This document shows positions 48,501 through 60,500 of a stretch of 64,000 bases of DNA, piece after piece. A program made the position numbers. Position 1 is the first letter of the stretch, and every line of letters starts with the position of its first letter. Origin of the DNA: Malacoraja senta (taxonomy: Eukaryota). The stretch spans positions 186,001 through 250,000 of the forward strand of contig JAXLNO010003642.1 in NCBI GenBank assembly GCA_038087875.1, in the 5' to 3' direction.

Positions 48501-51500
48501 CACACTTACCCCGGCTTCCACTATTTTTTACAGCGCAAACATTGAACAATTTGGCGTTTTTTAACAGGTAGGAAAGTACGCGTTTCTTGCATTAATAACA
48601 TATACCGGAAGCTGCGATGTCCTCCACATGGATTAGAAACATAGAAACCTAGCAAATAGGTGCAGGAGTAGGCCATTCAATATGATCATGGCTGATCATC
48701 CAACTCAGTATCCTGTACCTGCTTTCTCTCCATACCCCCTTTAGCCACAAGGGCCACATCTAACTCCCTCTTAAATATAGCCAATGAAATGGCCTCAACT
48801 ACATTCTGTGGCAGAGAATTCCAGAGATTCACCACTCTCTGTGTAAAAAATGTTTTTCTCTTCTCAGTCCTAAAAGATTTCCCCTTTATCCTTAAACTGT
48901 GACCCCTTGTTCTGGACTTCCCCAACATCGGGAACAATCTTCCTGCATCTAGCCTGTCCAACCACTTAAGAATTTTGTAAGTTTCTATAAGATCCCCCCT
49001 CAATCTTCTAAATTCTAGCGAGTACAAGCCGAGTCTATCCAGTCTTTCTTCATATGAAAGTCCTGACATCCCAGGAATCAGTCTGGTGAACCTTCTCTGT
49101 ACTCCCTCTATGGCAATAATGTCCTCCCACAGATTAGGAGAACAAAACTGTACGCAATACTCCAGGTGTGGTCTCTCCAAGACCCTGTACAACTGAAGTA
49201 GAACCTCCCTGCTCCTATACTCAAATCCTTTTGCTATGAATGCTCGCATACCATTCGCTTTCTTCACTGCCTGCTGCACCTGCATGCCTACTTTCAATGA
49301 CTGGTGTACCATGACACCCAGGTCTCGTTGCATCTCCCCTTTTCCTAATCGGCCACCATTCAGGTAATAGTCTACTTTCCTGTTTTTGCCACCAAAGTGG
49401 ATAACCTCACATTTATCCACATTATACTGCATCTGCCATGCATTTGCCCACTCACCCAGCCTATCCAAGTCATCTTGCAGCCTCCTAGCACCCTCCTCAC
49501 AGCTAACACTGCCCTCCAGCTTCGTGTCATCCGCAAACTTGGAGATGTTGCATTCAATTCCCTCGTCCAAATCATTAATATATATTGTAAATAGCTGGGG
49601 TCCCAGCACTGAGCCTTGCGGTACCCCACTAGTCACTGCCTGCCATTCTGAAAAGGACCCGTTTACTCCTAGTCTTTGCTTCCTGTCTGCCAGCCAGTTC
49701 TCTATCCACATCAATACTGAACCCCCAATACCGTGTGCTTTAAGTTTGCATACTAATCTCTTATGTGGGACCTTGTCGAAAGCCTTCTGAAAGTCCAGAT
49801 ATAACACATCCACTGGTTCTCCCTTATCCACTCTGCTAGTTACATCCTCGAAAAATTCTATAAGATTCGTCAGACATGATTTACCTTTCATAAATCCATG
49901 CTGACTTTGTCCAATGATTTCACCATTTTCCAAATGTGCTGCTATCCCATCTTTAATAACTGACTAGCAGTTTCCCCACTACCGATGTTAGACTAACTGG
50001 TCTGTAATTCCCCATTTTCTCTCCCTCCCTGTTTTAAAAAGTGGGGGTTACATTAGCTACCCTCCAATCCTCAGGAACTACTCCAGAATCTAAAGAGTTT
50101 TGAAAAATTATCACTAATGCATCCACTATTTCTGGGGCTACTTCCTTAAGTACTCTAGGATGCAGCCTATCTATCCCTGGGGATTTATCGGCCTTTAATC
50201 CATTCAATTTACCTAACACCACTTCCCAGCTAACCTGGATTTCACTCAGTTCCTCCATCTCATTTGACCCCCGGTCCCCTGCTATTTCTGGCAGATTAAT
50301 TAAGTCATCCTTAGTGAAGAGAGAACCAAAGTAGTTATTCAATTGGTCTATCTCCTTGTTCCCCATGATCAATTCACCTGTTTCTGACTGCAAGGGACCT
50401 ACATTTGTTTTCTCTTTTTCTCTTCACATATCTATAAAAACTTTTGCAGTCAGTTTTTATGTTCCCTGCCAGTTTTCTTTCATAATCTATTTTCCCTGTA
50501 AGTACAGGAGCAGGGAGGTTCAACTGCAGGTGTACAGGGTCTTGGTGAGACCACACCTGGAGATTGAGCGGTTCCTTTCATCAAGCCCTTTGACCCGGTG
50601 ACCTTATATGCACACCCCCTATAACTCCAGATGTGGTCTCACCAGAGGCCTGTGGCAGGGGCGGAAAACCTGGGGGGGGGGGTGGGGCCAGAGGGGACAT
50701 GTCCCACCCCCCATGTTTTGAGAGGTGGAGGACATCCCCCCCACTTTCCACGAGACAGTGGGGGTGGGACTGATGATCGAGGGCGCGATTATTGGAGGAG
50801 GGAGGAGTGGGGGAAGAGGGTGGGACTGAGGATAGAACGCGGCGATTAGAGGAGGGAGACGTGGCACAGACCTGCTCCTCATCCGCAGGCAGGATCAATC
50901 CCGGCCGGCTCTCCGGCGCTGTCCCGTCCCCCCCCCCCCCCCCCCCACGGGTGGCCAGAGAGGTCGGCAGTCAGACGGGAGCTGTACCCCCAGGCCCACA
51001 GCCAGCGCAGAGAAACAGCCCTAAACCCAGCTCACTCTGCCTGTCCCGCCAGGTGAATCTGCCTGGACTTGCGGAAAATATGGCCAGCGCGGAGAAGCAG
51101 CGCTGGTGTCCCGTCAGTCCAGGCAGGGCTATAGTTAACCCGGTGAGACAGGCAGTGTTGAGCTGCATTTAGCGCTGGATTGAGCTTCCGAAGCCTCGCG
51201 CGCATGTGTGTGTGTGAGTGTGCGCATGCGCGCGCGGCCGTCCAAAAATCGTGTTCCCCGTCCCCTCCATGTTTTGATTAGCGAGTTCTGCTCTTGCCCT
51301 GTACAACTGCAGAAGAACCAATTTACTGCTATACTGGACACATACTCCAGATGTGGTCTCACCAGAGCCCTCCTGTACAACTGCAGAAGGACCTCTATAC
51401 TCCTATACTGGACACATACTCCGGATGTGGTCTCACCAGAGCCCTGTACAACTGCAGGACCTCTATACTCCTATACTGGACACATACTCCAGATGTGGTC

Positions 51501-57500: not shown

Positions 57501-60500
57501 TTCTATACTGGACACATACTGCAGTTGTGGTCTCACCAGAGCCCTGTACAACTGCAGAAGGACCTCTATACTCCTATACTGGACACATACTCCAGATGTG
57601 GTCTCAGCAGAGCCCTCCTGTACAACTGCAGAAGGACCGCTACACTCCTATACTGGACACATACTCCAAATGTGGTCTCACCAGAGCCCTCCTGTACAAC
57701 TGCAGAAGGACCTCTATACTCCTATACTGGACACATACTCCAGATGTGGTCTCACCAGAGCCCTGTACAACTGCAGAAGGACCTCTATACTCCTATACTG
57801 ACGCATACTCCAGATGTGGTCTCACCAGAGCCCTCCTGTACAACTGCAGAAGGACTGCTATAGTCCTATATTCGACACATACTCCAGATGTGGTCTCACC
57901 AGAGCCTCCTGTACAACTGCAGAAGGACCTCTATACTCCTATACTGGACACATACTCCAGATGTGGTCTCATTAGAGCCCTCCTGTACAACTGCCGGACC
58001 TCTATACTCCTATGCTGGACACAATACTCCAGATGTCCCTCTAACCTTCAGCCCATTGGCCGCGCCGACTGTCCGTCTCCCACATCCTCCAATCAGTAAC
58101 GAGAGAAGGCGGGACGACTTCCAATCTCCCCCCCATTGGATGATCTGGCCGCCCATCACAAATGTCCATCCATCAGCCACGTCTAGATTCGGTACAACCT
58201 CCTACTCCCCCGCCCATTGGCCGGTCTTCCGTCCGTCAACCCGTCTCTGGCCCATTGGATGATCCGTCCGCCCATCACCCAGTCTCCATCCAATCAGCGC
58301 CTGCGGAGGCGGGATGACCCTGGAACGAGCCGCCCATTGGCCGGGCCGCCGTCCGTCACCGCCTCCTCGTCCAATCAGCGCGGTCGGGGGGCGGGACCTG
58401 GCGGCGTTTGGGGCCCGGAGCCGCCGCCATCTTGATCGCCGGCGCCGTCTCCGTCTCCCCTCACTAAGTCTCACTCTCCCTCTCTCTCTCTCTCTGTCCC
58501 CGAGCGTCCCCGCCCCGCTACCTTGGTGCCGGGGGTGAAGCGCTGCCGCCCGCCCGCCGGGGTCATGGCCGCCGTGGATGATGCGTTTGGCCACCCCGTC
58601 CATGTCCAACAGCGGCGCCTCGATCAACCGCCCGCCCGCTCGGGTGTTTCCGCTCACGCACTCGGGTGTTTCCGGCGGCGGTCATGCACTCGGCTCACTC
58701 GGGCTGTGACGTCACTCGGGCTCGGGCGTCTCCTCACTCGGGCTGTGACGTCACTCGGGCGTCTCCTTACTCGGGCTGTGACGTCACTCGGGCGTCACGT
58801 TGAGTACAGGAGCAGGGAGGTTCTGCAGGTACACAAAAATGCTGGAGCAACTCAGCGGGTGCAGCAGCATCTATGGAGCGAAGGAAACAGGCAACGTTTC
58901 GGGCCGAAACCGTTCTTCAGACTCATAGGGGGCAGTTGTACAGGGTCTTGGTGAGACCACACCTGGGGGTCAGTGTTAGCTGTGAGGAGGATGCTAGGAG
59001 GCTGCAAGGTGACTTGGATAGGCTGGGTGAGTGGGCAAAATGCATGGCAGATGCAGTATAATGTGGATAAATGTGAGGTTATCCACTTTGGTGGCAAAAA
59101 CAGGAAAGTAGACTTATCTGAATGGTTTTCGATTAGAAAAAGGGGAGATGCAACGAGACCTCGGTGTCATGGTACACCAGTCATTGAAAGTAGGCATGCA
59201 GGTGCAGCAGGCAGTGCAGGGCTCTCGCTTAACTTTTTTTCCCTGTTGCCAGCCGGGCAACCTAGGCAGCTTTTTAGGTTTCCAAATGACAGTTTAGGTG
59301 GTCATTTAAGATGGCTTGCATGACGCGTGCGATAATGTGCTCGGACGAAGTGCGTAGTTACCAGTCGGAATTACACTCAAGGAAGCATTCACATATTATT
59401 TCTGCTTCAAATAAAGTCACAAACTAAACATATTCACCAATCAAGACATGATATATCCCACAATGACATGCAGCAAAATTATAAGACAGTATCAACTCTT
59501 TTTACACATTGCAATGAATGAAATTTCTATTAGTTCTTTGCACTTCCAAACAAAAATGTGGTTGGATTATTCAGCGTATGATCAACCTGTGTCAATAAAT
59601 CCTGGACCATGGTAACATATATGCGTACGTATAGTTGTGAATGTTGCTCATTAAATAACTACAGTACTGATACTCCATATTTAGAGCATTGATTTGCCGT
59701 TAAAATGAATTCTGTAATAACGTGTCAAAGGCAGCAGTGACAATCGAACACTGCGGTTTTAATGTTTCACGTGTTCACAATTTAATTAATCCATCTTTAT
59801 GGATTAAAACAAATAATAACATTGGGAATTAAAACACATTTGATTGCATTCCATTATCAAACATAGTCAATGTTCGCTCTGAATACATTTCCAGCACAAT
59901 AGGGTCAGGGAGGGGGGTGTGTGTGAATCAGTGCGGGGTGGATAGATGGCGGGGGTGGGGGGTTAGAAGGCAGTCGGTGCAGAATGGATGGATTGAGGCA
60001 GGTGAATTAGTACGTGTTGGTTGGAGTAGGTAAAATTGTGAGGGGAGAGCATGGGGGATGTCAGTGGTGTTGAATGGGGGGGGGGGGTTCAGTGCGGGAT
60101 GGATGGGGGTAGACAAAAGTGCTGGAGAAACTCAGCGGGTGAGGCAGCATCTATTGAGCGAAGGAAATAGGCAACGTTTCGGGTTGAGACCCTTCTTCAG
60201 ACTGTTCCCCCCATTCTTCTTGAATGGTAGGATCAGTACAGGATGGATGGGGGGGTGATATCAGCGCAGGATGAATGGGGGGGGGTCAGTACAATGTGGA
60301 TCGGAGGGTGTGTAGGATGAATGGGGGATCACTACAGGATGAAGGGGGGAAGGTGCAGGGTAAATGGAGGGTGGGTCAGTACGGGATGAATGCGTGGATT
60401 AGTACAGGATGGATGGAGGAGAAGTGCAGGATGGATGGGAACGGCGTAAGTACAGGGTGAATTGGGGAACCAGTGTAGGATGGATGGGGGGGGGGTGGCA

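What the first reader, a model, noticed from the sequence alone, without database searches (positions are those of the whole stretch)
51297..58035. 6.7-kb satellite born from an antisense CR1 ORF2 fragment and bracketed by two promoter-like islands
Seen: about 90 tandem units corresponding to one ~70-bp CR1 RT-adjacent segment, circularly joined through GGACAC. CpG/TF-motif islands lie immediately left (50.75-51.25 kb) and right (58.05-58.8 kb). Established: satellites can arise from TE fragments, and antisense TE transcripts feed piRNA/siRNA silencing. Inference: a plus-strand transcript would be a ~90-fold antisense copy of a conserved part of the commonest LINE here, so it could be a silencing-RNA source or a zinc-finger binding array. 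Neutral slippage is the null explanation.
Basis: partly seen in the sequence, partly recalled or inferred. Interest (0 to 1): 0.68.

Follow-up and report, generated by a model that had tools for sequence, protein, structure and literature searches.

The report
Satellite array made from a CR1 fragment
A 6.7-kb run of about 92 head-to-tail copies of one 72-base piece of a CR1 jumping gene sits next to a promoter-like CpG island; it is a real but ordinary kind of repeat, with no sequence sign of a function.

Summary
The array is real. TRF finds 92.8 copies of a 74-bp unit at 51298-58036, and a junction 28-mer matches 85 times against 0 expected. The unit is one contiguous 72-bp piece of CR1 ORF2, codons 238-262 of the neighbouring CR1 copy, about 50 codons past the RT domain, lying antisense on the + strand. 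The head-to-tail join lies in an ACT present at both ends of the CR1 segment. GGACAC is decayed CR1 sequence, not filler. Unit lengths, recurring variant blocks and a weak three-unit periodicity fit growth by unequal exchange.

Only the right flank is clearly promoter-like: CpG o/e 1.02, 9 CCAAT, 3 TGACGTCA and 10 GGGCGG. The left flank is GC-rich without enrichment of the motifs tested, and it has array sequence on both sides.

Array transcripts would match local CR1 copies poorly: 0 of 6712 28-mers have fewer than 3 mismatches.

Best reading: a neutral TE-derived satellite, a new member of a known kind. CR1- and L1-ORF2-derived satellites are already described. Expression, small RNAs, polymorphism and distribution could not be tested here.

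The parts
51298..58036 (+). Tandem array of about 92 units of 74/71/68 bp. The + strand is antisense to CR1 ORF2, so the CR1 sense reading lies on the - strand.
   Evidence: TRF; anchor spacing; junction 28-mer 85 of 85 hits here; homology to CR1 copies.
50597..50662 (+). Orphan array-type partial unit left of the left GC-rich stretch. The core 50624-50651 is secure; the outer bounds are approximate.
   Evidence: 96% over 28 nt to array units. It carries array-specific variants in alignment A2.
50663..51297 (.). It has G and C homopolymer runs and a two-copy repeat of about 55 bp. Array sequence lies on both sides of it.
   Evidence: GC 0.63, CpG o/e 0.62-0.71. No motif enrichment. No Pfam domain, no protein homolog for ORF 50777-51169, no Rfam match near threshold. 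No other copy in the window.
58037..58799 (.). Right CpG island. It has about three tandem modules of about 119 bp carrying CCAAT boxes and GC boxes, a YY1-like core, a CT-rich tract, and three 33-bp modules each with TGACGTCA.
   Evidence: GC 0.67, CpG o/e 1.02, 84 CpG. 9 CCAAT (0.69 expected), 3 TGACGTCA (0.01 expected), 10 GGGCGG (2.4 expected), each reached by 0 of 500 shuffles. Internal repeats. No Pfam, protein or Rfam hit.
50501..50566 (+). Isolated CR1-sense patch covering positions 6-72 of the same 72-bp CR1 segment. It abuts the 5' end of the CR1(-) copy and pairs with the orphan unit as an inverted repeat.
   Evidence: 89.6-92.5% to three CR1 copies; span; hairpin -58.2 kcal/mol, z -2.39.
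58800..58966 (+). Second isolated CR1-sense patch of the same segment. It abuts the 5' end of the CR1(+) copy and carries a nested SINE-like element of about 107 bp (58825-58931).
   Evidence: 96-100% to the same segment of the CR1(+) copy. The SINE-like element has 11 other matches in the window.
48634..50500 (-). 5'-truncated CR1 LINE copy. It holds a 415-codon RT-bearing ORF, and its reading frame is interrupted at least once upstream of that ORF. It contains the unit's homolog at 49150-49221 (codons 238-262).
   Evidence: RVT_1 at aa 6-189, E 4.2e-26. Translation. 7092 homologs, best named from skates and rays. N-terminal piece matches a shark CR1-like protein. Segment bounds.
58963..61999 (+). 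5'-truncated CR1 copy, interrupted once by an unrelated insertion of about 2.2 kb. It contains its own copy of the unit-homologous segment (61467-61531).
   Evidence: 93-95% to the CR1(-) copy; tblastn with CR1-like proteins.
45936..46685 (-). CR1 3' fragment containing the local segment most similar to the unit (46485-46549, 84%).

Best explanation
This is a neutral, TE-derived satellite (minisatellite-sized units, satellite-sized array).

A 72-bp internal piece of a CR1 LINE ORF2 was duplicated head to tail. The piece is the conserved stretch that reads ...[20 protein letters not shown].. in the neighbouring copy. The join used a 3-bp ACT present at both ends of the segment, which points to replication slippage or template switching (inferred).

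The founder unit lost its only CpG (CR1 GTACGC became GGACAC) and one base. A 3-bp gain produced the 74-bp form, and a 6-bp loss produced the 68-bp form.

The array then grew to about 92 units by unequal exchange or slippage in registers of one and three units. This is inferred from recurring variant blocks. It has no function of its own.

The right-hand CpG island is an independent neighbour, probably a promoter. The left GC-rich stretch lies inside the left end of the array.

Shown: the array, its CR1 homology, the join, the variant structure and the composition of the flanks. Inferred: the mechanism of birth and growth, and the absence of function.
For: Tandem structure and statistics.

The unit is a contiguous CR1 ORF2 segment with ACT at both ends. 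The - strand reading still shows ...[12 protein letters not shown]....

Growth by block duplication: 64 distinct sequences among 91 units, the commonest present 8 times. Six runs of 3-4 consecutive units recur with at most 1 edit per unit, at offsets of 21, 6, 27, 25, 6 and 3 units. Mean edit distance is lower at lags 3 and 6 (5.28, 5.38) than at lags 1, 2 and 4 (6.12, 5.98, 5.85). Mean pairwise identity is 0.90 at all distances from lag 1 to lag 80.

No sign of constraint:
- Unit RNA folds no better than shuffles (z -0.79 on +, +0.44 on -).
- Stop trinucleotides on the stop-poor + strand number 19 in the unit-covered part, against about 30 expected from the observed substitutions. This is a crude model with non-independent cells.
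- The array peptide has no close relative among 1.84 billion representative proteins. There were 5 hits at 21-35% identity, all themselves translated repeats.
- No Rfam family matches.

Precedent: TE-derived and specifically CR1- and L1-ORF2-derived satellites are listed in two reviews (PMC9659126, passages and table; PMC6947457, table). 23% of human mini/satellites are TE-derived (PMC3389668, abstract).
Against: Neutrality is argued from absence of signal. No expression, small-RNA, methylation, population or cross-species data could be consulted.

The array directly abuts a strong CpG island.

The same CR1 segment occurs as two isolated sense patches at the outer borders, each beginning within 3 bp of the unit's join point. 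Simple slippage does not explain this.

A sense/antisense pair at 50510-50659 can fold into a stem of about 33 bp (z -2.39).

The parent CR1 copy is not recognisable around the array. tblastn with four CR1-like proteins finds nothing in either flank beyond the patches and the array edges.

The transition:transversion count among variant cells is 72:112. This is unusual for neutral vertebrate DNA, although cells count inherited variants many times.
Confidence: 0.72

Rival explanations
1. Silencing-RNA source. The array is transcribed on the + strand and processed into piRNAs or siRNAs antisense to CR1 ORF2.
For: All units share one orientation, antisense to CR1 on the + strand. GC-rich stretches flank it. 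A sense/antisense CR1 hairpin lies just upstream. The window is TE-dense. A satellite-derived piRNA is documented in Aedes (10.1101/2020.01.15.907428; search listing and start of abstract only).
Against: 0 of 6712 array 28-mers have fewer than 3 ungapped mismatches to five local CR1 segments, and only 60 have exactly 3. 4 of 6725 15-mers and 0 of 6722 18-mers are exact. The left stretch, the only place for a + strand promoter, shows no motif enrichment. The right island would drive CR1-sense RNA through the array. Caveat: only the CR1 copies in this window were compared, so another subfamily elsewhere in the genome could match better.
Confidence: 0.1
2. DNA-level regulatory array. About 90 identical binding sites for a zinc-finger or other factor act as a heterochromatin seed, insulator or variable-length modulator of the adjoining CpG-island promoter.
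For: The array directly abuts a strong CpG island. The repeat is highly regular. A C2H2 zinc-finger ORF lies 7 kb away, which is circumstantial only.
Against: Variants are spread over 45 of 74 unit columns, with no invariant core examined. No gene could be assigned to the island.
Confidence: 0.08
3. Assembly artefact. A much shorter repeat was inflated or mis-joined by the assembler.
For: Long tandem arrays are error-prone in assemblies (general knowledge). No reads were available.
Against: 64 distinct unit sequences among 91. Structured, recurring multi-unit variant blocks and three length classes. Degenerate edge units. An assembler loop would give identical copies.
Confidence: 0.05
4. Repetitive protein-coding sequence read on the + strand.
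For: The commonest unit has no stop trinucleotide on the + strand. ORFs of up to 1010 aa occur. 79 of 91 units have lengths of 2 mod 3.
Against: Unit length is not a multiple of 3, so the frame rotates. 20 stop trinucleotides break every frame. There is no significant depletion of stops. No homolog was found.
Confidence: 0.01

Closest known systems
Chicken HinfI repeat (CR1 embedded in a tandem repeat) and chicken centromeric Cen2/3/4/7/11 repeats derived from CR1-C
   Same: Tandem arrays whose unit contains CR1 sequence, including part of ORF2, as listed in PMC9659126 (passage and table) and PMC6947457 (table).
   Different: According to the review's table, the chicken HinfI unit includes the 3' UTR plus partial ORF2. 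Here the unit is only 72-74 bp, wholly inside ORF2, and the host is a batoid fish. I did not read the primary chicken papers and made no sequence comparison.
L1 ORF2-derived satellites (PROsat of Phodopus roborovskii, Pvc20 of harbour seal)
   Same: Satellite unit derived from an internal ORF2 piece of a LINE (PMC9659126, passage and table).
   Different: A different LINE clade (L1, not CR1) in mammals. Array sizes and locations were not compared.
TE-derived minisatellites/satellites of the human genome (Ahmed and Liang 2012)
   Same: Local tandem duplication of a TE-internal segment, later expanded by local duplication of units (PMC3389668, abstract).
   Different: That is a genome-wide class, not a homologous sequence. 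The abstract says current mechanisms explain only 6% of the cases, so the birth mechanism is open there too.
Satellite-derived piRNA locus of Aedes (works-like comparison for the rival only)
   Same: A dispersed euchromatic satellite that yields a functional piRNA (10.1101/2020.01.15.907428; listing and start of abstract).
   Different: No small-RNA evidence here. The Aedes satellite is not described in what I saw as TE-antisense. Complementarity to local CR1 is poor here.

Membership tests
TE-derived satellite / minisatellite | Head-to-tail tandem copies far beyond chance | tested here: met
   92.8 copies; 85 junction matches against 0 expected.
TE-derived satellite / minisatellite | Unit homologous to a contiguous part of a transposable element | tested here: met
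   68-78-nt alignments at 81-84% to CR1 copies. Maps to codons 238-262 of a CR1 ORF2. The ORF is CR1-like by RVT_1 and 7092 homologs.
TE-derived satellite / minisatellite | Many loci or high genomic abundance (satellite in the strict sense); heterochromatic or centromeric location | not testable with these tools
   No eukaryotic genome collection was available. There are no other copies in the 64-kb window apart from the orphan piece. Genome contigs (bacteria and archaea) gave 0 hits.
Minisatellite/VNTR | Length polymorphism between individuals | not testable with these tools
   There is only one sequence.
piRNA cluster / small-RNA source | TE fragments antisense to the element on the transcribed strand | tested here: inconclusive
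   The orientation is uniform and antisense on +, but the transcribed strand is unknown.
piRNA cluster / small-RNA source | Extended near-perfect complementarity to target TE copies | tested here: not met
   0 of 6712 28-mers with fewer than 3 mismatches and 4 of 6725 exact 15-mers against five local CR1 segments. The genome-wide CR1 population was not available.
piRNA cluster / small-RNA source | 24-31-nt small RNAs with 1U bias or ping-pong signature | not testable with these tools
   No expression data.
CpG-island promoter (right flank) | GC above 0.55, CpG o/e above 0.65, length above 500 bp (criteria recalled from memory) | tested here: met
   58037-58800: GC 0.668, o/e 1.02, 764 bp. Motif clusters.
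CpG-island promoter (left flank) | Same composition criteria plus promoter motifs | tested here: inconclusive
   50750-51250: GC 0.637, o/e 0.71. 50650-51297: o/e 0.62. CCAAT 1, TGACGTCA 0, GGGCGG 1, all at the chance level.
CpG-island promoter (either flank) | A transcription start and a transcript | not testable with these tools
   No exon or domain found in 108 of 116 flank ORFs scanned. No homolog for ORFs 58205-58681(-) and 50777-51169(+).
CR1 clade LINE (source element) | RT domain and closest relatives among CR1-like ORF2 proteins | tested here: met
   RVT_1 E 4.2e-26. Best named hits are skate, ray and shark proteins at 74-93% identity, and bird and turtle CR1-type proteins at about 50%.

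The most novel reading that the evidence does not exclude
The array is a dedicated, promoter-flanked source of CR1-ORF2-antisense RNA, or a binding platform, in a cartilaginous fish. The recurrence of the same ~70-bp ORF2 segment as isolated patches at the 5' ends of two neighbouring CR1 copies would then reflect a hot spot of template switching in CR1 reverse transcription. That hot spot would both seed such arrays and mark a segment the host targets.
Probability: 0.08. Interest if true: 0.55.

Novelty: new member of a known kind. Interest (0 to 1): 0.25.

Why it matters
If it is what it seems, it is one more documented case of a LINE-internal fragment turning into a satellite, here in a batoid fish. 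My two literature searches found no paper on CR1-derived satellites in that group.

The join is clean: 3-bp microhomology with both parental ends visible in neighbouring CR1 copies. This makes it a tidy example of how such arrays are born.

It also matters practically. The + strand is almost stop-free, so gene callers will predict bogus proteins of up to 1010 aa from it.

It would become a finding of wider interest only if expression data showed strand-specific small RNAs or an effect on the neighbouring CpG-island promoter.

Tried and rejected
1. I looked for the satellite elsewhere.
- The array peptide (54117-55016, +) against 1.84 billion representative proteins gave only 5 weak hits at 21-35% identity, all unrelated translated repeats.
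- The junction 28-mer in genome contigs gave 0 hits, but that collection holds only bacteria and archaea.

2. I looked for a gene served by the islands.
- Pfam was run on 24 of the 87 ORFs of at least 90 aa.
- Pfam was also run on 108 of 116 stop-to-stop ORFs of at least 50 aa in 44.5-51.4 and 57.9-64 kb. The 8 dropped ORFs lie within the CR1 RT ORF region already scanned.
- Only TE domains and a sub-threshold THAP hit appeared.
- Protein searches with one ORF from each island found nothing.
- I read possible first exons by eye. I built no spliced model and joined no exons.

3. I tested whether the two islands are related to each other, as ends of one element. Only the CR1 patches match.

4. 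I tested whether the array sits inside a recognisable CR1 copy. tblastn with four CR1-like proteins found nothing in either island.

5. I tested whether edge units are closer to CR1 than core units. They are not.

6. I tested whether the unit or the CR1 segment has special RNA structure. It does not (z -0.79, +0.44, -1.8).

7. Rfam at gathering threshold on the whole window, and in E-value mode on both flanks, gave nothing meaningful. The two miRNA-model hits score 21-22 bits against thresholds of 62 and 87. No tRNA was found.

8. A megablast self-comparison of the array returned no rows, so I replaced it with unit-by-unit edit distances.

9. I read two papers that turned out irrelevant to CR1-derived repeats: the parrot preprint and the chicken repeat landscape (0 occurrences of my four phrases).

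
Full report
**What is there**

TRF finds one large array at 51298-58036: period 74, 92.8 copies, 91% matches, 3% indels. No other array of comparable size exists in the window.

A 13-nt anchor recurs 89 times, with spacings dominated by 74 (52 of 88) and 71 (20 of 88). After three diverged anchors are filled in, there are 91 full units. Their lengths are 74 (52), 71 (23), 68 (4), 73 (4), 72 (4), 70 (3) and 67 (1).

A 28-nt string across the unit join, allowing 3 mismatches, matches 85 times. 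All 85 are in the array on the + strand, against 0.00 expected.

**Source of the unit**

I queried the window, with the array masked, using three consecutive units. Contiguous matches of 68-78 nt at 81-84% identity fall in dispersed LINE copies at 46485-46549, 49147-49221, 61467-61531 and 10112-10167. Shorter matches fall at 50501-50562, 50624-50651, 58933-58966 and 30810-30848 (alignment).

The copy at 48634-50500 (-) carries a 415-codon ORF with an RVT_1 domain at residues 6-189 (E 4.2e-26). A protein search with that ORF gave 7092 hits at E <= 0.001 among 8000 scored candidates. The best named hits are:
- Leucoraja erinacea, 83-93% identity
- Mobula hypostoma, 85%
- Hypanus sabinus, 75%
- Chiloscyllium punctatum, 74%
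- bird and turtle CR1-type proteins, about 50%

So the element is a CR1-clade LINE, and the window most likely comes from a skate-like batoid. This is inferred from those names only.

The unit's homolog in this copy is 49150-49221. It is 72 bp long and spans codons 238-262, about 50 codons after the Pfam RT domain ends. It encodes the stretch ...[26 protein letters not shown].... The array lies antisense to this on the + strand. Read on the - strand, units still give ...[12 protein letters not shown]....

**The join**

In the CR1 copy, the 72-mer is preceded by ...ACT and itself ends in ...ACT. In the array, the end of one unit runs through that ACT into GGACAC. GGACAC aligns column for column with CR1 GTACGC.

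GGACAC is therefore decayed CR1 sequence, including loss of the segment's only CpG. It is not a linker. The head-to-tail join sits in a 3-bp microhomology.

Compared with the CR1 72-mer:
- The 71-bp form lacks one A.
- The 74-bp form has an extra 3 bp.
- The 68-bp form lacks 6 bp.

I infer a microhomology-mediated tandem duplication as the founding event.

**Internal structure**

- Mean pairwise identity of units is 0.90. It does not fall with distance (0.897-0.911 for lags 1-12, 0.898-0.907 for lags 20-80), but rises slightly at lags 3 and 6.
- By edit distance the mean is 5.8 per unit, again lower at lags 3 and 6.
- There are 64 distinct sequences among 91 units, and the commonest occurs 8 times.
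- Six runs of 3-4 consecutive units recur elsewhere with at most 1 edit per unit, at offsets of 21, 6, 27, 25, 6 and 3 units.
- Specific variant pairs recur along the array.
- Against the commonest real unit there are 184 substitution cells in 91 units (2.0 per unit), in 45 of 74 columns. Transitions number 72 and transversions 112, with inherited variants counted repeatedly.

This is the usual picture of growth and partial homogenisation by unequal exchange, with a weak three-unit (about 219 bp) register that TRF also sees. It also argues against an assembler loop.

**Tests for function in the sequence**

- *RNA structure.* Two-unit RNAs fold no better than shuffles on either strand (z -0.79 and +0.44).
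- *Coding.* The + strand is nearly free of stop trinucleotides (20, against 282 on the - strand). This is because the commonest unit has none, and it creates ORFs of up to 1010 aa.
  - The unit length is not a multiple of three.
  - The 19 stops in the unit-covered part are not clearly fewer than the roughly 30 expected from the observed substitutions (a crude model).
  - The array peptide has no real relative among 1.84 billion representative proteins. All 5 hits, at 21-35% identity, are themselves translated repeats.
- *Known RNA families.* No Rfam family or tRNA was found.
- *Antisense matching.* Units are 13-22 edits (mean 15.8) from the nearest of three local CR1 72-mers, and edge units are not closer. 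Against five local CR1 segments:
  - 0 of 6712 array 28-mers have fewer than 3 mismatches, and 60 have exactly 3.
  - 4 of 6725 15-mers are exact, and 0 of 6722 18-mers are exact.

Transcripts of the array would therefore be poor guides against the CR1 copies seen here. Other subfamilies in the genome could not be checked.

**The flanks**

*Right flank (58037-58800).* It has GC 0.67 and CpG o/e 1.02, with 84 CpG. It holds 9 CCAAT (0.69 expected), 3 TGACGTCA (0.01 expected) and 10 GGGCGG (2.4 expected), each reached by 0 of 500 shuffles. The motifs sit in tandem modules of about 119 bp and 33 bp, so they are not independent. The factor names behind these motifs are recalled, not tested.

This is a convincing CpG-island, promoter-like region. 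However, young TE sequence in this window also keeps CpG o/e of 0.8-0.96. I also found no exon, domain or homolog to assign a gene or a direction.

*Left flank.* It has GC 0.64 and CpG o/e 0.62-0.71, reaching 0.94 only in 51040-51297. It shows no enrichment of any of the six motifs. No domain, homolog or RNA family was found, and it has no second copy in the window.

An array-type partial unit lies to its left. The core at 50624-50651 is 96% identical over 28 nt and carries array-specific variants. The left stretch therefore lies within the left end of the array rather than bracketing it. The two flanks are unrelated to each other.

Neither flank shows CR1 protein homology, so no parent CR1 copy is recognisable around the array.

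**An unexplained detail**

Just outside both flanks lie isolated CR1-sense (+ strand) patches of the very same ORF2 segment.
- 50501-50566 covers positions 6-72 of the 72-mer.
- 58800-58966 carries a nested SINE-like element of about 107 bp.

Each abuts the 5' end of a 5'-truncated CR1 copy, one on the - strand and one on the + strand. Each begins within 3 bp of the CR1 position where the satellite unit is joined. The right patch is 96-100% identical to the same segment of the adjoining CR1(+) copy.

The left patch and the orphan unit form an inverted repeat that folds with z -2.39. The CR1 sense RNA around the segment is not strikingly structured (z -1.8).

A template-switch hot spot at this point of CR1 would explain both the patches and the birth of the array. 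I could not test this.

**Comparison with what is known**

- Satellites derived from TE-internal pieces are well documented. Two reviews list the chicken HinfI repeat (CR1, partial ORF2 plus 3' UTR), chicken Cen2/3/4/7/11 (CR1-C), and the L1 ORF2-derived PROsat and Pvc20 (PMC9659126, passages and table; PMC6947457, table).
- In humans, 23% of mini/satellites are TE-derived, and known mechanisms explain only 6% of them (PMC3389668, abstract).
- Searches for 'satellite DNA' + 'skate' + 'CR1' and 'satellitome' + 'Chondrichthyes' found no paper in the held library. This does not show that none exists elsewhere.

I therefore file the array as a new member of a known kind. Abundance, chromosomal location, polymorphism, transcription and small RNAs were not testable with these tools.

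**Limits**

- Supplementary files were not consulted.

**Verdict**

The silencing-RNA and binding-array readings remain possible but gain no support from the sequence. Interest 0.25.

Noticed in passing
window 34435-36940 and 40148-42898 (+): Two short LTR-type, virus-like units. Each has one long ORF (600 and 639 aa) with RNase H and/or integrase zinc-binding and integrase core domains. Each is bounded by direct repeats of about 200 bp, 99% and 91-93% identical. The two ORFs are 65% identical over 417 aa. I did not look for gag, protease or RT, and I did not assess integrity.
   Followed up: partly
window 27464-28540 (+): Adjacent ORFs with Phage_int_SAM_4 and Phage_integrase (tyrosine recombinase) domains just above Pfam cut-offs. 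This suggests a DIRS- or Crypton-type element.
   Followed up: no
window 43287-44343 (+): A C2H2 zinc-finger ORF (228 aa, at least 7 fingers) built of 84-bp finger repeats, lying directly after the second LTR-type unit.
   Followed up: no
window 58825-58931 and 11 other sites (e.g. 60108-60203, 32054-32159, 1520-1609, 38886-38977): A SINE- or MITE-like element of about 100 bp with a short internal palindrome. It is present about 12 times in 64 kb at 74-89% identity. One copy is nested in the right CR1 patch.
   Followed up: partly
window 50501-50566 and 58800-58966: Isolated sense patches of the same ~70-bp CR1 ORF2 segment that forms the satellite unit. Each lies at the 5' end of a truncated CR1 copy and starts within 3 bp of the unit's join point. 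Unexplained; possibly a template-switch hot spot.
   Followed up: partly
window 51298-58036 (+): The + strand of the array has only 20 stop trinucleotides, against 282 on the - strand. This gives spurious ORFs of 458-1010 aa that gene callers could report as proteins.
   Followed up: yes
window 47913-48568: This region aligns to its own reverse complement (73.5% over 710 columns). An ORF at 48289-48591 (-) has a sub-threshold THAP match (E 6.6e-4, 20.8 bits against a cut-off of 23.9).
   Followed up: no
window 45936-50500 (-): Three CR1 3' pieces of two subfamilies lie in the same orientation within 4.6 kb. This is the same orientation as the CR1 sense of the array.
   Followed up: no
window 60000-60750: A G-rich block with GC skew up to +0.60 and short 22-29-bp tandem repeats. 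It lies inside the insertion that interrupts the CR1(+) copy.
   Followed up: no
proteins P0042 and P0053: CR1-like proteins at 60% identity to the window's ORF are labelled in NCBI as Klebsiella pneumoniae and Proteus mirabilis 'reverse transcriptase family protein', on contigs of 1.6-1.7 kb. They look like vertebrate contamination in bacterial records.
   Followed up: no
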